Shown: positions 80-41,027, counted from the stretch's first letter. The stretch: 41,582 nt of DNA from Parcubacteria group bacterium GW2011_GWA1_40_21 (GCA_000996205.1 LBYO01000003.1:1-41582), one strand, 5' to 3'. Notes: a model not told the origin generated them from the letters alone. Program-made: numbers and translations.

Positions 80-823
80 ATGAACACTAATATTATTACA
101 AAAAAACTCTCCCCTAAAAAGCTAAAAAGCTACCCGCCCGCCACGACTGCTGTCGGGCATGTCGGGCGCGGCAAGCTACAAGCTAACCGTTTTCATCCAT
201 CAGCTTCCCGAAACCTACAACTCCGCCTCATCGGCGGACGAGCCACAACCAAAAACCCAACCTCATCGGCGGGCAGGCTACAACCTAATCGCGGTTTCAC
301 CCTGATTGAAATGCTCGTCTCAATTTCCGTCTTTATGGTGGTTATGCTTGTCGCCGCGAGCTCGCTTTTGAGCATTATTGACGGCAACAACAAAGCCCAG
401 TCCCTGAAGTCCGCGATAAACAATTTGAATTTCGCACTTGAGAGTATGCAGAAAAATATAAGGGTGGGAACAAGTTATTCGGGGGGTGGGAGTTGTTCTC
501 CCGCCGATACTTGCATAATCTTCGATTCCTACAAAGACCTTAATGGTGATGGTAATATGGATAATGATACTGTTATATATAAGTATAATGATACCGAAAA
601 ATCAATAGAGAGATGTGAGAATATCTCAGGCGTAACTTGTAGTTTAAGCAGTAATTTCACCAGATTGACCGCGCCGGAAGTAAAAATAACTGATATGAAA
701 TTTTATATTGACAGCAGTTCTCAGCCAAGAGTCTTGATTACCATAAGTGGCGAAGCGGGAACTAAGGAAAGAATAAAAACAAATTTTAATCTTCAGACGA
801 CCGTATCGCAAAGATCATTCTAA
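80..823 (+). CDS. Type IV minor pilin (PilW/PulJ-like) with an abnormally long, repeat-derived leader
   Basis: Class III signal G|FTLIEMLVSISVF followed by a hydrophobic helix; about 72-aa leader; DLNGDGNMD Ca-binding-like motif. Confidence 0.88.
   Translation: MNTNIITKKLSPKKLKSYPPATTAVGHVGRGKLQANRFHPSASRNLQLRLIGGRATTKNPTSSAGRLQPNRGFTLIEMLVSISVFMVVMLVAASSLLSIIDGNNKAQSLKSAINNLNFALESMQKNIRVGTSYSGGGSCSPADTCIIFDSYKDLNGDGNMDNDTVIYKYNDTEKSIERCENISGVTCSLSSNFTRLTAPEVKITDMKFYIDSSSQPRVLITISGEAGTKERIKTNFNLQTTVSQRSF
134..172 (+). repeat. 39-nt GC-rich module A, identical copy at 939-977
   Basis: ccgcccgccacgactgctgtcgggcatgtcgggcgcggc occurs twice, 39/39 identical, in different reading frames. Confidence 0.95.
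211..294 (+). repeat. 84-nt module B, copy at 1513-1596
   Basis: 83/84 identical; contains the palindrome tccgcctcatcggcgga, ggcgggcagg and ACCTACA heptamers. Confidence 0.95.
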
Positions 824-843
824 TTGAGTAAGATACAATCTAT

Positions 844-1494
844 ATGAAATTTATAAAAATAATAAAAAATAAAATCCTAGCCGCCAGTTGCAATTTGTCA
901 TGCGTCAGGAAACTCTTCCCTAAAAACCTACCACCTATCCGCCCGCCACGACTGCTGTCGGGCATGTCGGGCGCGGCCGCCTACAACCTACAACCTTCCG
1001 CCAAAGGTTTCACCCTCATAGAAACTCTCGTCGCCATCTCAATCCTTATGGTCGCGGTCGCGAGCCCCTTAACTATCGCCCAGAAAGGATTAGCTTCAGC
1101 TATCTATGCCAAAGATCAAATCATCGCCTCTTATCTGGCGCAAGACGCGATAGAATACATAATAAACGCGAGCGATAAAAATGTCGCGGATGGAAAAGGC
1201 TGGCTTCTGGGAATAAGCGATAATTGCGGAACGGCTTGCGCGGTTAACACAAGAATAGACAGCGGAATTGCCTCTTGCGCTGGAACTTGCGACGCTCTTA
1301 ATTACAACGAGTCAACAAATATTTACAGCCATGATTCTACAGGTGGTGACAATAAAGCGTCGCCATTCACGAGAACAGTTAAAGCTACAGAAGGTCCGAC
1401 CGACGAAGCGCTGATTACCGTGACGATGTCTTGGAAAGACAAAGGAGCTGATAGGAGCCTTAATTTTTACACGAGAATATTTAATTGGAGATAA
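844..1494 (+). CDS. Type IV minor pilin (PilV/PulI-like)
   Basis: G|FTLIETLVAISIL motif; A..LAQDAIE helix; C-terminal F.R.V / ITVTMSW; long leader. Confidence 0.88.
   Translation: MKFIKIIKNKILAASCNLSCVRKLFPKNLPPIRPPRLLSGMSGAAAYNLQPSAKGFTLIETLVAISILMVAVASPLTIAQKGLASAIYAKDQIIASYLAQDAIEYIINASDKNVADGKGWLLGISDNCGTACAVNTRIDSGIASCAGTCDALNYNESTNIYSHDSTGGDNKASPFTRTVKATEGPTDEALITVTMSWKDKGADRSLNFYTRIFNWR
939..977 (+). repeat. Module A, second copy
   Basis: Identical to 134-172; flanked by ACCTAC(A/C) heptamers. Confidence 0.95.
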
Positions 1495-1501
1495 TAATAT
1501 T

Positions 1502-2086
1502 ATGGCAAATAAAAACCTACCACTCCGCCTCATCGGCGGACGAGCCACAACCAAAAACCCAACCTCATCGGCGGGCAGGCTACAACCTAATCGCGGATTC
1601 GCGATGCTGTTTTCCGTCCTCGTATCCAGCTTGCTTGTCGTTATCGGACTGTCAATCTTCAACATCACCCTCAAAGAATTGACCATTTCAACCTCGGCAA
1701 GAGAATCTCAGACGGCTTTTTACGCCGCCAACAGCGGACTGGAATGCGCCCTTCGGTGGGATAATTTAAATGGAAATGGCTTAAGAAGCGCCTTCGCTTC
1801 CACTTCCGCTTCGGATGAAATTGACAGTGCCAAAAGCGTAATAGCTTTATGCAATACCGTGAGAGTAAACAGCGCCACCTCCGCCACTACGGAATTTGAA
1901 TTTAAAGTAAATAACTCGGGTGATTCCAATGGTCCTTGCGCCAAAGTTAAGGTTGTAAAGACTCCCGGTTCTCCGACTGTTGAAAAGATGACCACGGTAA
2001 TTGAATCTCGTGGCAAGAACATTTGCGACACAAGCGGCAGAAGAGTTGAAAGAGGCTTGAAAGCCACTATAATTACGCAGATGTAG
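1502..2086 (+). CDS. PilX/PulK-like minor pilin
   Basis: G|FAMLFSVLV (no Glu at +5), S..AFYAANSGLECAL, C-terminal IESRG...R.VERGL. Confidence 0.85.
   Translation: MANKNLPLRLIGGRATTKNPTSSAGRLQPNRGFAMLFSVLVSSLLVVIGLSIFNITLKELTISTSARESQTAFYAANSGLECALRWDNLNGNGLRSAFASTSASDEIDSAKSVIALCNTVRVNSATSATTEFEFKVNNSGDSNGPCAKVKVVKTPGSPTVEKMTTVIESRGKNICDTSGRRVERGLKATIITQM
1513..1596 (+). repeat. Module B, second copy
   Basis: 83/84 identical to 211-294. Confidence 0.95.
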
Positions 2087-2125
2087 CCAGGCGAAGCTCG
2101 TAGCTTTTTAGCTTGTTAGGTATAA

Positions 2126-4237
<2,112 letters not shown>

Positions 4238-4240
4238 TTA

Positions 4241-4350
4241 CCTTGAATTACGAAACGCAAAAAATTTATAGGTCTATTGAGCAAAAACACTTAGAAGACA
4301 AAGAGATTTTGCGACCCGAGGACCTAATTTTTGCTTTTCGTAATTCAAGG
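4241..4350 (-). mobile_element. 110-nt MITE-like hairpin element, copy 1 of 3
   Basis: Terminal IR ccttgaattacgaaa/tttcgtaattcaagg; its reverse complement aligns with 30056-30173 and 40918-41027. Confidence 0.8.
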
Positions 4351-4826: not shown

Positions 4827-4920
4827 AAGGTTATAGGTATTAGGTTGTAGGTTTAAGATAGGAAAATTAATTTTTTAATCCAAAACCTATAACCTAACAC
4901 CTACAAACTAAAACCTTCCG
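4827..4920. repeat. Inverted pair of 7-mer (ACCTA(C/T)A-type) arrays
   Basis: Left arm aaggttataggtattaggttgtaggttt; right arm aaacctataacctaacacctacaaactaaaacc. Confidence 0.9.
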
Positions 4921-6031: not shown

Positions 6032-6082
6032 AGGCAGGTTTTAGGTTTCTAATCAAATCCCAATGTCTAATCCAAATTTCTT

Positions 6083-6120
6083 AAACCTATAACCTAACAC
6101 CTACAACCTAAAACCTTCCG
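6083..6120 (+). repeat. 7-mer array, 37/38 direct repeat of 4883-4920
   Basis: aaacctataacctaacacctacaacctaaaaccttccg. Confidence 0.92.
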
Positions 6121-8191: not shown

Positions 8192-8623
8192 ATGAAAAAA
8201 AGAAATGAAATAATAGCGGTAGCCGTTGCTTTGGCGGCGGTGGGAGTATTATTTTTCTGGGGCAAAGGTTTTACAAATAAGATTAATCCTAACGATAACA
8301 ATAAAATGCAAGATGAAAATATTGTCGGCGATGGGGCGAAAGCGGGCGATGTGGTGACTATTCATTACACGGGCACTTTGGAAAACGGGACTAAGTTTGA
8401 CAGCTCGCTTGACAGAGGCCAGCCGTTTGAATTTACGCTCGGCGTGGGGCAAGTTATCAAAGGATTTGATAATGGCATACTCGGAATGAAAATCGGAGAG
8501 AAGAAAACAATCGTGATCAACCCTGAAGACGGATACGGCAGCGCCGCGGTCGGTTCAATTCCCCCGAACTCCACTCTTATTTTTGATGTTGAGCTGTTGG
8601 GTATCGCGCCGGAGAAAAATTAG
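8192..8623 (+). CDS. FKBP-type peptidyl-prolyl isomerase, membrane anchored
   Basis: [42 protein letters not shown]; N-terminal TM. Confidence 0.96.
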
Positions 8624-8698: not shown

Positions 8699-8771
8699 TG
8701 TCATTCCCGTGAATACGGGAATCCAGATTTAATCAAGGTTGAACTGAATTCCCGCTTGTGCGGGGATGACA
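8699..8771. repeat. 73-nt REP-doublet element (TGTCATTCCCG...GGGAATCCAG / ...GGGGATGACA), intergenic copy
   Basis: Two inverted hairpin arms with a 17-nt spacer; same length and layout as 23084-23156. Confidence 0.9.
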
Positions 8772-8782
8772 TAGTAAGAAAA

Positions 8783-10000
8783 ATGTCCGCCATTAAATTC
8801 AAAATCGAAAAAAGGCTCAAGGGGAAATTGGGCAGAGCCGGTGTTTTGGAGACTCCAAACGGGTCAATTCAAACGCCGGCTTTTGTCGTTGTGGGGACTA
8901 AAGCGACCGTGAAGGCTCTGACGCCGGAACAAGTGAAAGATTTGGGAACTCAAGTTGTTCTTGCGAATACTTACCATCTCTATCTTCAGCCAGGCGACGA
9001 GATTGTAGCGGAGGCTGGCGGATTGCGCAAATTTATGAATTGGCAAGGACCGACAATGACGGACTCCGGCGGTTTTCAAGTGTTTTCTCTAGGAGCCGCA
9101 TATGGTAAAGAAATTTCCAAAGTGGTGAAAATTACCGACCCATCGCTTATGATTCCCGAACGGTTTGACGATTCCGACGCGCCGTGTCTGGCAAAAATCG
9201 GACAAGACGGTGTGTCTTTCAAATCGCATTTGGACGGTTCGGTTCACTACATCACTCCGGAGAAATCAATCCAGATTCAGCACAATCTTGGCGCCGATAT
9301 GATTTTCGCCTTTGACGAATGCACATCGCCCGCGGAAGATATCCGCTATCAGACAGAGGCGCTTGATCGGACGCATAGATGGGCGAAAAGAAGTCTGGAA
9401 GAACACATTAGACTGAATAAAGAAAATAAAATCGCTCTCTTTGGAATCGTGCAAGGCGGAAGGGAAGAAGATTTGAGAAAAAAATCCGCCAAGTCTCTGT
9501 CGGAGATGGAAGTTAATGGCGAAGGCTTTGATGGGTTCGGCATCGGCGGATCTTTCGCCAAAGAGGATATGTCTACCGCCGTAAAATGGGTCAATGAAAT
9601 TTTGCCCGAAGAGAAACCAAGACATCTGCTCGGCATCGGCGAGCCGGAAGACTTATTTATGGGAATAGAAAACGGCGTTGACCTTTTTGACTGCGTAGCT
9701 CCGACGAGAATCGCCAGAAATGGCTCGCTTTATACAGGGATAGGAAACATCAATATCTTAAATTCCAAATTCATCTCCGATTTTTCAAAAATTGATGAAG
9801 ATTGCCATTGCTACACCTGCCAGAATTACACTAGAGCCTATCTCGCGCATCTTTTCAGAGGCAAAGAAATTCTAGCGAACACTTTGGCATCAATTCATAA
9901 TCTATATTTCATAGTGAGCCTAGTAAAAAAAATCCGCCAGTCAATTTTGGACGATAATTTTGCGGATTTTAAAACGGACTTTTTAATGCGATATAAATAA
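8783..10000 (+). CDS. tgt: tRNA-guanine transglycosylase
   Basis: LANTYHL, TDSGGFQVFSL, GIVQGG, DLFDCVAPTR.ARNG, CxCxxC...HN. ATG 8783 preferred, because the upstream TTG lies inside the repeat. Confidence 0.97.
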   Translation: MSAIKFKIEKRLKGKLGRAGVLETPNGSIQTPAFVVVGTKATVKALTPEQVKDLGTQVVLANTYHLYLQPGDEIVAEAGGLRKFMNWQGPTMTDSGGFQVFSLGAAYGKEISKVVKITDPSLMIPERFDDSDAPCLAKIGQDGVSFKSHLDGSVHYITPEKSIQIQHNLGADMIFAFDECTSPAEDIRYQTEALDRTHRWAKRSLEEHIRLNKENKIALFGIVQGGREEDLRKKSAKSLSEMEVNGEGFDGFGIGGSFAKEDMSTAVKWVNEILPEEKPRHLLGIGEPEDLFMGIENGVDLFDCVAPTRIARNGSLYTGIGNINILNSKFISDFSKIDEDCHCYTCQNYTRAYLAHLFRGKEILANTLASIHNLYFIVSLVKKIRQSILDDNFADFKTDFLMRYK

Positions 10001-19196: not shown

Positions 19197-19241
19197 CCTT
19201 TCATTCCGATTTTTTTCAGTGTATCATATGATTATATTTAC

Positions 19242-19359
19242 CTTGAATCACTAAACTCCGTTATGAGCGGAAACTTGCGGAGCGCGGCTGGCGAGGAGAG
19301 AGCAATCCGTCAGCCGACGGATATGTGTGTTCCGCGAATAATGGAGTTTCGTGATTCAC
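19242..19359 (+). repeat. 118-nt structured hairpin element (member 2), upstream of gatC
   Basis: Long terminal IR; ATCCGTC-AGCC-GACGGAT hairpin; homologous to the reverse complement of 25803-26033. Confidence 0.88.
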
Positions 19360-19370
19360 AATATTTATTT

Positions 19371-21830: not shown

Positions 21831-21910
21831 AGTTTCTTAGCTTGTAGATTTTTGAAGAAGAAAAAATATCAGATTCTTCCTACAACCTACAACCTAACAC
21901 CTACAACCTA
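21831..21910. repeat. 7-mer array (ACCTACA) with a degenerate inverted arm
   Basis: cctacaacctacaacctaacacctacaaccta at 21879-21910. Confidence 0.85.
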
Positions 21911-21920
21911 ATTAAAAACT

Positions 21921-22095: not shown

Positions 22096-22247
22096 GCGTT
22101 CCATTCACCTTAAGTCAAAGGACATTTTTTCTGTTATTCCCGTCTCGAAGCAAGATTCGGGATAAATTCCGGCGGGAAACCGGATTCAATCATTTTTGAT
22201 CAGAATTTCGCAAGCGAAATTCTGTGGGTATCTGATACCCACAGAAT

Positions 22248-23603
22248 TTAATTTGAAATATGCTCAGATTTACCCGACGAACTTCCGGCCACGAAGCCTG
22301 TCGTCCAGCAGAGCTGAAGGCTGTAGCCGCCCGAAGGGCGGTCTATGTTCAAGATGTCGCCCGCGAGATAAAGGTTTGGAAAAAGGCGGGAGCTCATTGT
22401 TTTGAAATCAATTTCGCGAAGTGAAACCCCGCCACTTGAGACGATGGCTTTTTCCGCGCCGAGCAATTTGTCGGCGCGAATCGGAATATTTTTCAAAATA
22501 TTCACGAGCGCCAGTCTTTCTTCGCGGGTGATGCTGTTGCACTCCGTGTCGGGATTGATTTTTGACATTTCCACTATCGCCGAAGCGAGCCCCGCCGCGA
22601 GCGGAGCGAGCGCGTGAAGAGCGTTCTTAAATTTTTTACTGTGATTTTCTTTGAATAATTCTTGAAGTTTGAGGTTAAGCGCGCCGTGATTTTCCGATGG
22701 GAATAAATCAAGCGAAATTATGACCTCTCCGTATTTCAAAAGTTCTCCGATACTCCTGCTCATATTGAGAATTGCCGGACCGCTTAGTCCGAAGTGCGTA
22801 AAAATTATTTTTCCTTTGTTTGTTTCTTGCTTCGCGTCGTTTTGGAAAGTGGCGATTTTGACATTAGCAAGACTTAATCCGGCGAGTTTCTTGACCCAAT
22901 CGTCTTTTACTGCGATCGGGACAAGTGAAGGTGCTGGTTCAATCACGGCGTGACCGATTTTCCGAAGCCATGCGAAGCCGTCGCCGGTTGAGCCGGTTTC
23001 CGGACGGGAAGTTCCGCCTGTCGCGATTATGACTTTGCGCGCCAAAATTTCTTTCCCGTCTTTTACTTTGATCACGCATACTTTGTCATCCCCGTGAAGA
23101 CGGGGATCCAGACTCGCATTGATTAAATCCAGATTCCCGCCTGCGTGGGGATGACAATTCGAGTTAATGTCCATCAAAATATCAACAACAGGAGAATTTA
23201 AAATAATTTCCACTTTATTTTTCTTAAGATATTTCAAGAGCGCGTCAAAAACAGTTTTGGCATTGCCACTCACGGGGAACACCCTTTGCTCATTTTCAAT
23301 TTTTGTTTCAACTCCGCATTTGTGAAAAAATTCCAATGTCTCTTTGACGCTGAACTGTGAAAAAGCGGAAAATAGAAATTTTCCGCCATTTTTGAATTTT
23401 TCCAGAAATTTTCGCGTGTCAAATTCAGCATTGGTAAGATTGCATCTGCCTCCGCCTGTGATAAGAAGCTTTTTTCCTAATGAGTCATTTTTTTCTATCA
23501 AAATAACTTTTGCTCCCAATTCCGCCGCCCTTCCCGCCGCCATCATCCCCGATGGCCCTCCGCCAACGACGGCAACATCATATATGATTTCGGTTTTCTT
23601 CAT
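22248..23603 (-). CDS. HI0933/YhiN/BaiN family flavoprotein
   Basis: GGGPSGMMAA, GKKLLITGGGRCNLTN, ATGG.S.P.TGSTGDG, FTHFGLSGP, SGGYSLQ.CW.TG. Confidence 0.96.
   Translation of the reverse strand: MKKTEIIYDVAVVGGGPSGMMAAGRAAELGAKVILIEKNDSLGKKLLITGGGRCNLTNAEFDTRKFLEKFKNGGKFLFSAFSQFSVKETLEFFHKCGVETKIENEQRVFPVSGNAKTVFDALLKYLKKNKVEIILNSPVVDILMDINSNCHPHAGGNLDLINASLDPRLHGDDKVCVIKVKDGKEILARKVIIATGGTSRPETGSTGDGFAWLRKIGHAVIEPAPSLVPIAVKDDWVKKLAGLSLANVKIATFQNDAKQETNKGKIIFTHFGLSGPAILNMSRSIGELLKYGEVIISLDLFPSENHGALNLKLQELFKENHSKKFKNALHALAPLAAGLASAIVEMSKINPDTECNSITREERLALVNILKNIPIRADKLLGAEKAIVSSGGVSLREIDFKTMSSRLFPNLYLAGDILNIDRPSGGYSLQLCWTTGFVAGSSSGKSEHISN
23084..23156. repeat. 73-nt REP-doublet element inserted in frame in the HI0933 gene
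   Basis: tgtcatccccgtgaagacggggatccag-17 nt-ccagattcccgcctgcgtggggatgaca; twin of 8699-8771. Confidence 0.92.
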
Positions 23604-25786: not shown

Positions 25787-25802
25787 AAAGTTGTTAAATT
25801 GT

Positions 25803-26033
25803 TTGAATCGCAAAACTTCGTTATACGCGGAACACGCGTAATTTTCTGCTGAAAATTCGCTCTGCCCCGCCCGCCTTCGCCCCAATGCGCTATGTATTGC
25901 GTACTGCAAAAAGATTATAATACAAATGTGGAACTTTATTAAGATTATCACTGTAATCACTCAGGCATTGGCGGGCAGGTCGCGCCGCCGCGCTCCGCAA
26001 GTTTCCGCTCATAACGGAGTTTTGTGATTCAAG
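25803..26033 (-). repeat. Structured hairpin element (member 3) with a nested insert of about 113 nt
   Basis: Both ends match 19242-19359 on the reverse strand; insert 25867-25979 is bounded by ccgcccgcc/ggcgggcagg. Confidence 0.88.
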
Positions 26034-26084
26034 AAAATTAAGCGAAAAATTTGATTTTTTGCCGTTCATGTATATAATACTGAA

Positions 26085-28402: not shown

Positions 28403-28515
28403 AAGGTTGTGGGTAGTAGGTTATAGACGGTAGGTTTTTAGGAGAAGAAATTATTTAGAGATTTTTCTTATCTGCAACTCTTACCTACAACCTACTACCT
28501 AACACCTACAACCTA
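28403..28515. repeat. Inverted pair of 7-mer arrays
   Basis: aaggttgtgggtagtaggttatagacggtagg ... acctacaacctactacctaacacctacaaccta. Confidence 0.9.
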
Positions 28516-28558
28516 TTTTCGCTTGCGCGATATTTTTTTTGTGTTATGTTTATCAAAT

Positions 28559-28856: not shown

Positions 28857-28972
28857 AAGGTTGTAGGTAGTAGGCTTTAGGTAGTAGGTTTTTATGAAAG
28901 AGAGGAGGAGGATTGTTCACATATCTTTTGTCTTACCTGCTTTCTTGCCTACTACCTACTACCTACAACCTA
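28857..28972. repeat. Inverted pair of 7-mer arrays
   Basis: aaggttgtaggtagtaggctttaggtagtagg ... gcctactacctactacctacaaccta. Confidence 0.9.
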
Positions 28973-28979
28973 AAAACAT

Positions 28980-29936
28980 ATGACTGACATTGAAAAATTT
29001 AAAAAAAATAAGAAGACCGCGTTTCTAGCGGAGGAATACGAAAGACTCTCAAAAGAAGAGAGGGGTATTTTGGAAATGTCCGAAAAAGATCCGACTGTGG
29101 CTGAATTGGCACGAGAGGAGTCGGATGTTTTAAGAACCCAAAAGGAAGGCATTTTAAAGGAGATGGAAAGCATACTTACGGAAGAATCGGCGGAAGAAGA
29201 ATTTCCGAATGAAATAATTCTTGAAGTAAGAGCGGGGGCTGGAGGCGAGGAGGCGGCGCTTTTTGCCCAGACTTTGGCTAATATGTATAAAAAATATGCC
29301 GATTCAAAAGGGTGGTCATTTTCAGTCGTCAACGAGTCAAAAACTTCTCTCGGCGGTTATAAAGAGGCCGTTTTTGAAATAAGGGGGAAAAATGTTTACC
29401 AAGAATTGCGTTTTGAAACGGGCGTGCATAGGATACAGAGAGTGCCGGAAACGGAGAAAATGGGCAGAGTCCACACTTCCACGGCTTCAGTGGCTATTTT
29501 GCCGATTAGAAAGAAAACTTCAGTTGAAATAAAACCTACCGACATTGAAATTGAGTTTTCAAGATCAGGTGGAGCCGGAGGGCAGAATGTCAACAAGGTT
29601 GAGACGGCCGTGAGGCTCATACACAAACCGACCGGCATTGATGTCCGCTCAACCGCCGAACGAAGCCAGCAGAAAAACAGAGAAAAAGCGATGAGTATAC
29701 TTGTCGCCAAATTGGAAGTCTTGAAAGAAGAAGAAGAGGCGAAAAAATACTCCGCCGAAAGGAAAGAGCAGGTGGGAACAGCCGACCGTTCCGAAAAGAT
29801 AAGAACATACAACATCTTGCAAGATAGGATTACCGACCATAGGATAAAAGAGTCATGGCACAATATTGAAAAAATACTCGCGGGCGAAATCGGACCGATA
29901 ATTAAGGCGATGGGGAGAAGCGGTAGAAGTTTATAA
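28980..29936 (+). CDS. prfA: Peptide chain release factor 1
   Basis: [26 protein letters not shown] (PxT motif), [13 protein letters not shown]. Confidence 0.96.
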
Positions 29937-30055
29937 AGTCCGTAAAGTCAGCAAAGTAAGAATGGTTAATATCAAATTTAAAATTTCAAATTCTGAATGA
30001 CTTAATTTCAAATTCAAAATTTTTATTTGATTCAAAATTTTTTTGCCTTTAATTG

Positions 30056-30173
30056 ATAACCCCAAATTACGAAATGCAAAAAATTCAGGTCCTCGGGTCG
30101 CAAAAGCTATTTGTTTTTAAATGTTTTTGCTCAACCAGACCTGAATTTTTTGCATTTCGTAATTTGGGGTTAT
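30056..30173 (+). mobile_element. MITE-like hairpin element, copy 2
   Basis: Perfect 36-bp terminal IR (30056-30091 / 30138-30173). Confidence 0.85.
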
Positions 30174-30252
30174 AAACTTGATAACTTTACAAACTTTATA
30201 ACTGGTTCAAAAAATTTGCAATAAGGTTGATTATTTGTTAGGCTGTTTTTAT

Positions 30253-40904: not shown

Positions 40905-40917
40905 ATTTATATATTAA

Positions 40918-41027
40918 CTTTGAATTACGAAACGCAAAAATTCAGGCCATCGGGTCGCAAAATCCCTTTATCTTCTAAATGTTTTTGCTCAACCTGACCT
41001 GATTTTTTTGCATTTTGCAATTTGGGG
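40918..41027 (+). mobile_element. MITE-like hairpin element, copy 3
   Basis: Aligns along its length with 30056-30173 and with the reverse complement of 4241-4350. Confidence 0.8.

What the first reader, a model, noticed from the sequence alone, without database searches (positions are those of the whole stretch)
23084..23156. Same 73-nt element found both intergenic and translated inside a flavoprotein
Seen: 8699-8771 (intergenic) and 23084-23156 (coding) have identical length, TGTCAT...ATGACA ends, two hairpin arms and a related 17-nt spacer (atttaatcaa...). The spacer is inverted relative to the arms between the two copies. The coding copy gives CHPHAGGNLDLINASLDPRLHGDD. Known: the arms fit the ATTCCC-N8-GGGAAT pattern of Neisseria dRS3 and similar proteobacterial REP-like repeats. 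Inference: this is the clearest internal evidence that a dispersed element created a 24-aa protein insertion.
Basis: partly seen in the sequence, partly recalled or inferred. Interest (0 to 1): 0.75.

Follow-up and report, generated by a model that had tools for sequence, protein, structure and literature searches.

The report
Hairpin repeat inserted in-frame in flavoprotein
A 73-base two-hairpin DNA repeat of a family known from Neisseria and Rickettsia has landed in frame inside a flavoprotein gene of a tiny-genome groundwater bacterium, adding a floppy 24-residue loop; it is a clear example of a known phenomenon.

Summary
Window 8699-8771 (between an FKBP gene and tgt) and 23084-23156 (inside an HI0933-like flavoprotein gene) are two copies of one 73-nt element in opposite orientation. 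That explains the "inverted spacer".

The coding copy is a clean 24-codon insertion. Same-genus and metagenomic orthologues are empty at that codon junction. A good AF2 model puts the insert in a low-confidence loop between two beta-strands.

The arms are not merely dRS3-like. They belong to the published CGTC/TGTC-tagged REP family, also called NTS/SRM, whose hairpins are cut by small GIY-YIG single-strand nucleases (Ssn). In related CPR genomes the same termini bracket a 94-aa GIY-YIG gene, so the 73-nt element looks like its gene-less miniature. No such gene lies beside the arms in this genome.

Related hairpin elements sit in the same loop in two other genera.

In-frame REP dimers are already described (Rickettsia RPEs; Di Nocera 2013). 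This scan has also reported Ssn-type hairpins inside genes of many other CPR genomes. I therefore call this a well-documented new member of a known kind. Mobilisation by Ssn is inferred, not shown.

The parts
23084..23156 (-). In-frame copy of the 73-nt two-hairpin element inside the flavoprotein gene. It encodes residues about 150-173 (CHPHAGGNLDLINASLDPRLHGDD).
   Evidence: The empty-site comparison gives a 24-codon insertion between AAT (N) and AAA (K).
23084..23111 (+). Arm A of the coding copy (TGTC tag, perfect 8-bp stem ATCCCCGT/ACGGGGAT, loop GAAG, tail CCA).
   Evidence: Matches the published SRM search pattern. Sequence.
23129..23156 (-). Arm B of the coding copy. Its stem has two transitions relative to the family consensus: G-T wobbles on the + strand and C-A mismatches on the mRNA-sense strand.
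   Evidence: Within 4 mismatches of the NTS consensus. Sequence. The pairing was worked out by eye from the sequence.
8699..8771 (+). Intergenic copy of the same element, 75 nt after the FKBP gene and 11 nt before the tgt ATG.
   Evidence: ssDNA fold -16.4 kcal/mol, z = -4.8.
8699..8726 (+). Left arm of the intergenic copy. It contains an exact dRS3 pattern at 8703-8722.
   Evidence: SRM match.
8744..8771 (-). Right arm of the intergenic copy.
   Evidence: within 4 mismatches of NTS..
22248..23603 (-). Host gene: HI0933-like NAD(P)/FAD-dependent oxidoreductase, 451 aa, intact.
   Evidence: Pfam PF03486 at E = 3.9e-76 and PF22780 at E = 1e-31. Thousands of homologues. PDB 2i0z at E = 1.6e-79.
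22171..22209 (+). Weak half-copy of the element fused to another repeat module, about 40 nt beyond the stop codon of the flavoprotein gene.
   Evidence: nhmmer E = 0.012. Sequence. Weak, and should be treated as a lead only.

Best explanation
The 73-nt element is a dimer of two inverted hairpin repeats. The repeats belong to the CGTC/TGTC-tagged REP family, which includes Neisseria dRS3/NTS and the 'Ssn-related motifs'. Structurally it is the gene-less miniature of a unit of about 370 nt in which the same two termini bracket a 94-aa GIY-YIG nuclease gene. One copy inserted into the DNA that encodes a beta-hairpin turn of an HI0933-like flavoprotein. It happened to insert in the one reading register of the element that is normally free of stop codons, so the gene stayed open and now encodes an extra, probably disordered 24-residue surface loop. 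The insert is most likely a tolerated passenger, not an adaptation. Shown here: the repeat identity, the empty sites in orthologues, the loop location, and the link between these arms and GIY-YIG genes in relatives. Inferred: that an Ssn-type nuclease mobilises the element, presumably acting on hairpins in single-stranded DNA and leaving no target duplication; and that the enzyme still works.
For: Repeat family:
- 7 full-length and about 13 partial copies in the 761-kb genome.
- 14 dRS3-pattern hairpins against 0 for the reversed-pattern control.
- 14 SRM-pattern matches against a mean of 1.7 in 20 mononucleotide shuffles.

Insertion:
- L002, L003 and L031-L033 read ...AAT|AAA... where the window has AAT-[72 nt]-AAA.
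- 31 of the 35 closest homologues lack the peptide.
- Solved homologues have about 10 residues where the query has 34: 2i0z residues 161-170 against query 143-176.
- In the AF2 model (mean pLDDT 88.5) residues about 144-175 are coil with pLDDT 48-67, between strands 139-143 and 176-180.

Frame filter:
- Frame f1 is open in 6 of 7 full copies; f3 and r3 always end in TGA.

Not an artefact:
- Contigs from three or four other studies lie on the junctions: 0 differences across the 23156 junction (X5, X6, X8), and 3 differences reaching 27 nt across the 23084 junction (X8 record 29), which is under the tool's 31-nt rule for bridging.
- A 98%-identical protein cluster with 14 member sequences carries the insert.

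Link to GIY-YIG:
- In four CPR relatives, 7 of 23 small GIY-YIG loci have arms within about 100 nt. Four of them are bracketed on both sides.
- 0 of 8 Y1-transposase loci have an arm within +/-1.5 kb.
- L220 shows TGTCATTCCCG...GGGAATCCAG - gene - CTGGATTCCCG...GGGAATGACA, the same termini as the 73-nt element.

Published support:
- NTS consensus, SsnA ssDNA cleavage and the NTS-ssnA-NTS layout (PMC11893778, passages).
- CGTC REPs equated with dRS3 and RPE-6, and intragenic dimers encoding 20-30 aa (PMC3733652, passages).
Against: - None of the four small GIY-YIG genes in this genome is near an arm; the nearest is more than 12 kb away. They are only 29-41% identical, over part of their length, to the arm-flanked protein. 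Any mobilising enzyme is therefore absent, unassembled (26 contigs) or different.
- The window's arms do not meet the published NTS criterion of at most 1 mismatch. They have 3 or more mismatches, and only 2 of the 4 arms fit the SRM pattern.
- I could not compare the CPR GIY-YIG protein with N. meningitidis SsnA. No Neisseria protein was among the top 120 hits.
- No transposition by Ssn has been shown anywhere; the paper only raises it as a hypothesis.
- Sixteen of the 23 GIY-YIG loci have no arms.
- I saw no RNA or protein evidence that the insert is translated or that the enzyme is active.
- The flanks of the insert have diverged from the empty alleles (MDINSN / KVCV against ISKEGKN / KISG), so the exact original junction is inferred.
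Confidence: 0.75

Rival explanations
1. The element is a REPIN: two inverted REPs mobilised by a RAYT (Y1/HUH tyrosine transposase). Bertels and Rainey propose this for the same sequence in Neisseria.
For: The architecture fits: two inverted REPs less than 130 bp apart that fold into one long hairpin. No target duplication is seen, as with IS200/IS605-type ssDNA transposition. The genome has two Y1_Tnp genes above the Pfam cut-off. The preprint 10.1101/2021.07.10.451892 (passages) ties the 21-mer ATTCCCGCGCAGGCGGGAATC to a Group 2 RAYT in Neisseria.
Against: Each of the two Y1 genes is flanked by its own, different palindrome family (GGACATCGGATGTCC; CTGTGGGTATCAGATACCCACAG), not by these arms. 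In four arm-rich CPR relatives, 0 of 8 Y1 loci have an arm within +/-1.5 kb, and three of the five arm-rich genomes searched have no Y1_Tnp match at all. Both Y1 proteins score 30-36 bits against NCBIfam REP_Tyr_transpos, below its cut-off of 80.
Confidence: 0.1
2. It is a classical MITE derived from a DDE-transposase insertion sequence (TG...CA termini), moved in trans by a transposase.
For: It has terminal inverted repeats of about 29 nt that begin TG and end CA. It is small, dispersed and patchy among genomes.
Against: None of the 7 full copies shows a target-site duplication. The only gene found between these termini encodes a GIY-YIG nuclease, not a transposase. No IS110-type gene is present. 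I did not search for other DDE families.
Confidence: 0.05
3. The insert has been co-opted. Either the extra loop gives the flavoprotein a new interaction or regulation, or the intragenic hairpin acts as a cis site that modulates recombination or transformation at this locus, as NTS does in Neisseria.
For: The reading frame has been kept in lineages 80-98% identical (P0002, P0006, P0012). One arm keeps a perfect stem through a compensatory double change. The same loop carries hairpin elements in two other genera. SsnA with NTS lowers transformation in Neisseria (PMC11893778).
Against: The loop is predicted to be disordered. The insert sequences differ widely between lineages, including nested extra insertions in P0006 and P0012. 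The second arm is decaying. Most orthologues manage without it. No cognate nuclease lies near the arms in this genome.
Confidence: 0.08

Closest known systems
CGTC-tagged REPs, family CGTC-1 (Di Nocera et al. 2013, PMC3733652; passages read). The authors equate CGTC-1 with Neisseria dRS3 and with Rickettsia conorii RPE-6.
   Same: The tag is CGTC, 'changed to TGTC' in many repeats. The stem is 8 bp and starts with AT, the loop is 4 nt and the tail is CCA. Organisation is mainly dimeric. Intragenic dimers encode 20-30 aa. No dedicated transposase was known to those authors.
   Different: They list five phyla and CPR/Patescibacteria is not among them. I did not align the window's arms to their consensus figures, which are not held as text.
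NTS / Ssn-related motifs with SsnA GIY-YIG ssDNA nucleases (Chenal et al. 2025, PMC11893778; passages read).
   Same: The arm sequence is nearly the 28-nt NTS: GTCATTCCCG...CGGGAATCCAG, including the upstream GTC and the C after the palindrome that the paper reports as critical. In CPR relatives a GIY-YIG gene of about 95 aa is bracketed by inverted arms, the NTS-ssn-NTS layout.
   Different: In the window's genome the arms are orphans, with no adjacent GIY-YIG gene. The window arms have 3 or more mismatches to the strict NTS. A term search of that paper's main text found no mention of Patescibacteria, 'candidate phyla' or 'intragenic'. Its supplementary tables were not opened and may list such genomes.
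Rickettsia palindromic elements (RPEs). Seen only as summarised in the MITE review PMC10969869 (passages); the original papers are recalled, not read.
   Same: Palindromic repeats inserted in frame into unrelated housekeeping genes, adding peptide segments that are thought to be compatible with the fold.
   Different: The classical RPE-1 is about 150 bp; this element is 73 nt. The host here is a free-living, episymbiont-type CPR bacterium from groundwater, not an intracellular alphaproteobacterium. Exact arm matches do occur in a Rickettsia endosymbiont genome.
REPIN/RAYT systems (Bertels and Rainey; preprint 10.1101/2021.07.10.451892, passages read).
   Same: An inverted REP doublet that folds as one long hairpin; the 21-mer they give for the Neisseria REPIN also occurs in this genome (C2:343-363).
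   Different: The RAYT-like genes in this genome and in its relatives are not flanked by these arms.

Membership tests
CGTC-tagged REP (CGTC-1 / dRS3 type) | Tetranucleotide tag CGTC (or the TGTC/CCTC variants) at one end of the hairpin | tested here: met
   All four window arms and all 7 full copies start TGTC. The definition is from PMC3733652.
CGTC-tagged REP (CGTC-1 / dRS3 type) | Stem of 8-9 bp beginning with AT, loop of 4-5 nt, 3-nt tail close to CCA | tested here: met
   ATTCCCGT-GAAT-ACGGGAAT-CCA at 8703-8725 and ATCCCCGT-GAAG-ACGGGGAT-CCA at 23088-23110. The two other arms have tails CTG and TCA and imperfect stems.
CGTC-tagged REP (CGTC-1 / dRS3 type) | dRS3 pattern ATTCCC(N8)GGGAAT | tested here: met
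   Exact at window 8703-8722 and at 13 other sites in the genome. The three other window arms miss by 1-2 transitions. The pattern is from PMC3898611.
NTS / SRM - Ssn system | Match to the NTS consensus CGTCATTCCCGCGMAVGCGGGAATCYRG with at most 1 mismatch (the paper's criterion) | tested here: not met
   The window arms need 3-4 or more mismatches. Three arms elsewhere in the genome meet the criterion, and 17 lie within 4 mismatches.
NTS / SRM - Ssn system | Match to the degenerate SRM search pattern | tested here: met
   2 of the 4 window arms match (8699-8726 +, 23084-23111 +). There are 14 matches in the genome against a mean of 1.7 (maximum 5) in 20 mononucleotide shuffles.
NTS / SRM - Ssn system | Repeats flank a small GIY-YIG (ssn) gene | tested here: inconclusive
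   Not met in the window's own genome: 4 small GIY-YIG genes, none near an arm. Met in relatives: 7 of 23 GIY-YIG loci have arms nearby and 4 are bracketed on both sides.
NTS / SRM - Ssn system | The flanked protein is homologous to N. meningitidis SsnA (E < 1e-10 over more than 75% of its length) | not tested
   No SsnA sequence was available from any tool. The top 120 homologues of the L220 protein include none labelled Neisseria. Pfam GIY-YIG was matched at genome level.
NTS / SRM - Ssn system | Strand-specific binding and cleavage of the hairpin as ssDNA by the nuclease | not testable with these tools
   Needs biochemistry.
REPIN / RAYT | Two REPs in inverted orientation less than 130 bp apart | tested here: met
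   Arms are 45 nt apart start to start. The whole element folds as a hairpin.
REPIN / RAYT | A cognate RAYT gene flanked by the same REP | tested here: not met
   The two Y1_Tnp genes are flanked by other palindromes. 0 of 8 Y1 loci in relatives have arms within +/-1.5 kb.
MITE of a DDE transposon | Target-site duplication flanking the terminal inverted repeats | tested here: not met
   No duplication is seen at any of the 7 full copies.
HI0933-like flavoprotein (host gene) | Pfam HI0933_like Rossmann domain plus barrel/H2TH domain above the gathering score | tested here: met
   PF03486 at 256 bits (cut-off 50) and PF22780 at 110 bits (cut-off 27).

The most novel reading that the evidence does not exclude
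The beta-turn loop of this flavoprotein is a recurrent landing site. Ssn-type hairpin dimers entered it independently in at least three genera of one CPR family. Within the window's genus the filled allele is distributed against the gene tree while sharing flank motifs, as if the loop allele spreads by homologous recombination. If NTS-type hairpins and their GIY-YIG nucleases modulate recombination in these competence-dependent CPR bacteria as they do in Neisseria, intragenic hairpins would mark and shape recombination tracts inside genes rather than being mere passengers.
Probability: 0.2. Interest if true: 0.6.

Novelty: new member of a known kind. Interest (0 to 1): 0.35.

Why it matters
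The case shows, with empty-site controls and a confident fold, how a selfish hairpin repeat can lengthen a protein loop by 24 residues without breaking the gene. This is a simple route to protein length variation in genomes as small as 0.76 Mb. It extends the Ssn/NTS and CGTC-REP family to candidate-phyla bacteria. It also ties the gene-less dimers to a GIY-YIG cassette with identical termini, which bears on the open question of how these repeats multiply. For annotation, peptides such as CH.R..GGN...LD.RL.G.D inside otherwise conserved proteins flag repeat-derived loops.

Tried and rejected
- **First fold.** The first AF2 job, on a shallow 20-sequence alignment, gave mean pLDDT 44 and was discarded. 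A 71-sequence alignment gave 88.5.
- **Rfam.** Gathering-threshold search of the window found only a tRNA; no family covers the element.
- **IS110.** The phage/Piv-type recombinase family known to target dRS3 in Neisseria has no match in this genome.
- **Metagenome scan.** It returned only empty-site relatives. DNA for the filled relatives P0002, P0006 and P0012 and for the possible empty allele P0015 was not obtained, so their junctions are known only as protein.
- **Sequencing runs.** No RNA holder was listed. This says nothing about expression.
- **Joints across the element.** Joints skipping 115-121 nt across the element region (X5, two single contigs with sides 41 and 30; X8, two contigs with side 19) may be empty alleles of relatives. 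With short sides and 85% likeness they are too weak to use.
- **PDB and NCBIfam for the L220 GIY-YIG protein.** Only weak, generic matches (1zg2 at E = 0.003).
- **Other copies lying in long stop-to-stop frames.** They turned out to be upstream of real genes (PheS-like and L28-like starts, named from recall) or in spurious frames. The exception is the TspO case.
- **QMITE1 of Coxiella.** Seen only as a search listing and not compared.
- **Literature searches.**. I did not run a search combining Patescibacteria with these repeats, so I make no claim that the CPR occurrence is unpublished.

Full report
**1. The observation**

Window 8699-8771 and 23084-23156 are both 73 nt. Both begin TGTCAT and end ATGACA, and each holds two GC-rich hairpin arms. 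Aligned as given, the arms match but the centre does not. When copy 2 is reverse-complemented the centre matches as well. Overall identity is 52 of 73. In the spacer it is 14 of 21 inverted against 7 of 21 direct. The repeat finder reports the pair as the longest inverted repeat in the window (78 nt, 72% complementary). The "spacer inverted relative to the arms" is therefore the whole element lying in the opposite orientation. The arms are near-palindromic terminal inverted repeats and look alike either way.

Copy 1 lies between an FKBP-type isomerase gene (8192-8623) and tgt (ATG at 8783; Pfam TGT E = 6.5e-136). Copy 2 lies inside an intact 451-aa ORF (22248-23603, minus strand). That ORF is an HI0933-like flavoprotein (PF03486, E = 3.9e-76), and the copy is read as CHPHAGGNLDLINASLDPRLHGDD.

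**2. It is a dispersed family**

The window's genome is 760,931 bases in 26 contigs with 40% G+C. Names given to homologues place it among Patescibacteria/Parcubacteria.

- A profile of the two copies finds each at E about 3e-20.
- It also finds about 18 more loci. Seven copies in all are full length (73-96 nt; one has a nested insertion in an arm). The rest are halves, and some are fused to other repeat modules.
- None of the seven full copies shows a target-site duplication.
- As single-stranded DNA the copies fold into one long hairpin: -16.4 kcal/mol (z = -4.8) for copy 1, and -15.4 and -15.1 kcal/mol (z = -2.9 and -2.6) for the two strands of copy 2.

**3. The insertion**

Of the 35 closest homologues, 31 have 20-25 residues between the conserved LNSPV...IL and ...IKL strands. 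Four (P0001, P0002, P0006, P0012) have 46-59 residues there.

At the DNA level, the same-genus genes L002 and L003 and three metagenomic genes L031-L033 are empty. L031 reads AAG AAT | AAA ATT TCC GGA ATC AAA. The window reads TCG AAT [72 nt] AAA GTA TGC GTG ATC AAA. The net gain is exactly 24 codons between N and K. The final A of TGACA coincides with the first A of the lysine codon. A separate one-codon difference lies upstream.

Solved homologues also split here: 2i0z residues 161-170 face query residues 143-176. The second AlphaFold model (71 sequences, mean pLDDT 88.5, pTM 0.77) shows residues about 144-175 as coil with pLDDT 48-67, between strands 139-143 and 176-180.

The register used, f1, is free of stop codons in 6 of 7 full copies. 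Two other registers always end in TGA. An insertion in f1 can therefore survive selection.

The filled allele is not an assembly artefact. Contigs from other studies match the junctions, with zero differences across the 23156 junction and three differences reaching 27 nt across the 23084 junction. A 98%-identical protein cluster of 14 member sequences carries the insert.

**4. What the arms are**

A literature search with arm sequences taken from tool outputs led to three descriptions of the same sequence.

- **dRS3.** Schoen et al. give dRS3 as ATTCCC(N8)GGGAAT. They give the phage-Nf1-targeted subtype as ATTCCCRCCTRCGCGGRAAK (PMC3898611, passages). Arms at C2:388 and C6:37890 of this genome fit that subtype exactly.
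- **CGTC-tagged REPs.** Di Nocera et al. 2013 define these by a tag often changed to TGTC, an 8-9-bp stem starting with AT, a 4-5-nt loop, a CCA tail and a mostly dimeric organisation. They equate CGTC-1 with dRS3 and with R. conorii RPE-6. They report intragenic dimers that encode 20-30 aa, and they note that no transposase is associated (PMC3733652, passages). The window arms meet each of these features.
- **NTS and Ssn.** Chenal et al. 2025 extend dRS3 to the 28-nt NTS. They show that SsnA, a small GIY-YIG protein whose gene is flanked by NTS, binds and cuts NTS only as single-stranded DNA and lowers transformation. They define a degenerate Ssn-related motif, SRM (PMC11893778, passages).

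Tested against these definitions in this genome:

| Criterion | Result |
|---|---|
| NTS, at most 1 mismatch | 3 arms |
| NTS, at most 4 mismatches | 17 arms |
| SRM pattern | 14 matches, against a mean of 1.7 in shuffles |
| Window arms fitting SRM | 2 of 4 |
| Window arms meeting the strict NTS criterion | 0 of 4 |

**5. Distribution**

The dRS3 pattern occurs in 20 of 151 genomes sampled from the same order. Bursts occur in unrelated families (133, 52, 41, 39 and 23 hairpins, against 14 here), and most genomes have none. The reversed-pattern control gives 0-1 per genome.

The hosts span CPR groups, Proteobacteria (including a Rickettsia endosymbiont), Planctomycetota, Nitrospirota, Desulfobacterota, Chloroflexota, Bacteroidota and one Nanoarchaeota bin. 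In metagenome contigs laid on the locus, depth rises about 100-fold over one arm.

**6. What could move it**

This genome has two Y1_Tnp (RAYT-like) genes, but each is flanked by its own, different palindrome. It has no IS110 match. It has four small GIY-YIG genes of 85-97 aa, none within 12 kb of an arm.

In four arm-rich relatives the picture is different. Seven of 23 small GIY-YIG loci have arms within about 100 nt, four of them bracketed on both sides. None of 8 Y1 loci has an arm within 1.5 kb.

In L220 the unit reads TGTCATTCCCGCGCAGGCGGGAATCCAG, then a 94-aa GIY-YIG gene, then CTGGATTCCCGCCTTCGCGGGAATGACA. These are the termini of the 73-nt element. The element therefore looks like the same unit with the gene deleted.

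The 94-aa protein has homologues at 70-80% identity in Omnitrophota, Thermodesulfobacteriota, Planctomycetota, Chloroflexota, Latescibacterota and CPR, as expected for a horizontally moving unit. The window's genome holds only 29-41% partial matches to it, so its arms are orphans in the present assembly (97.7% complete).

That the nuclease mobilises the repeats is my inference. It is also the paper's hypothesis, and it has not been demonstrated. I could not test homology to N. meningitidis SsnA.

**7. History of the insert**

A maximum-likelihood tree of the 35 homologues, with the loop masked, scatters the four insert-bearers and needs at least 3 changes of state. P0001 and P0002 sit in a strongly supported 11-row clade (100/97) with P0006 and eight empty sequences. 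P0012 lies elsewhere.

An AU test rejects all four as one clade (p = 7.7e-14). It does not reject P0001, P0002 and P0006 together (p = 0.20).

Yet the filled alleles share flank motifs (N|CH ... G[DN]D|[KR]V; KSQN in P0006, P0012 and the empty P0015). Spread of one loop allele by recombination is therefore as plausible as repeated hits. Only protein sequences were available for these relatives.

Across genera the case for independent events is better. L004 (sister genome L012 is empty) carries a 66-nt related dimer four codons away. L005 (sister genome L011 is empty) carries a mosaic of another hairpin type plus a half arm. Both lie in the same loop. Only these 3 of 27 orthologue genes hold paired termini, always in this loop; L011 has one unpaired motif elsewhere. 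L006, L007 and L027 also have extra sequence there, and L007 and L027 have short GC palindromes.

**8. Verdict**

The phenomenon is known. In-frame REP dimers and RPEs are described in PMC3733652 and in the review PMC10969869 (passages). The Ssn/NTS system dates from 2025.

Earlier reports of this scan describe Ssn-type hairpins inside genes of many other CPR genomes, and other in-frame mini-elements in this same genome. I had reached the NTS/Ssn link before reading those notes.

What this case adds:
- a clean empty-site comparison and a fold-based location for the insert;
- identity of termini between the gene-less dimer and a GIY-YIG cassette in the same bacterial family;
- orphan status of the arms in this genome;
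- repeated occupation of one loop.

Noticed in passing
L220 (G009:C1) 539-3194: The hairpin-GIY-YIG-hairpin cassette sits between an ORF with DUF4131 + Competence domains and an ORF with a metallo-beta-lactamase domain. Together these make up a ComEC-type competence protein. The upstream ORF stops just before the element. The downstream ORF's ATG is the reverse complement of the element's terminal CAT.
   Followed up: partly
G000:C11:4646-4674 (L245): A half arm is read in frame as GSRLHGND inside a TspO/MBR-family membrane protein (Pfam E = 6.8e-51). This is a second intragenic copy of the family in this genome.
   Followed up: partly
G000:C1:11900-12330: A 97-aa GIY-YIG gene and a second tRNA-like stretch lie between two direct copies of a tRNA anticodon-arm-like hairpin (TTCCCGATGTTCATCGGGA). 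It looks like a nuclease module nested in a duplicated tRNA gene.
   Followed up: no
G000:C5:10835-11536 and G000:C9:4034-4801 (L065, L066): Two RAYT-like Y1 genes are each flanked by their own palindrome family. One copy of the C5 palindrome lies in frame inside the C5 gene itself. The C9 palindrome forms 19 hairpins genome-wide.
   Followed up: partly
window 4869-4920, 6069-6120, 21862-21920, 28474-28525, 28945-28988: Arrays of 7-nt-type repeats (CCTACAA / CCTAACA variants) recur in intergenic stretches, in both orientations (D1, D2, D6, D7).
   Followed up: no
window 30053-30176; also 4234-4332 and 40911-41027: A different inverted-repeat element has AATTACGAAA-containing arms (39-nt arms, 97% complementary, 46 nt apart). 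A related CTTTGAATTACGAAATAC module lies just outside three copies of the 73-nt element and brackets C20:19271 on both sides.
   Followed up: no
window 211-298 and 1513-1600; 117-185 and 922-990: Two pairs of long direct repeats (88 nt at 98% identity; 69 nt at 84%) with GC-rich hairpin cores lie near the start of the window (D3, D8).
   Followed up: no
window 19235-19288 and 25987-26040: A 54-nt inverted repeat, 93% complementary, with arms 6.7 kb apart; a second pair (69 nt, 71%) lies at 19299-19367 / 25795-25863 (I3, I5). Unexplained.
   Followed up: no
window 23078-23131: In contigs of four other metagenome runs, summed depth over one arm is 1100-1800 against about 5-70 on the flanks. The arm is therefore a very abundant repeat in those communities.
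   Followed up: no
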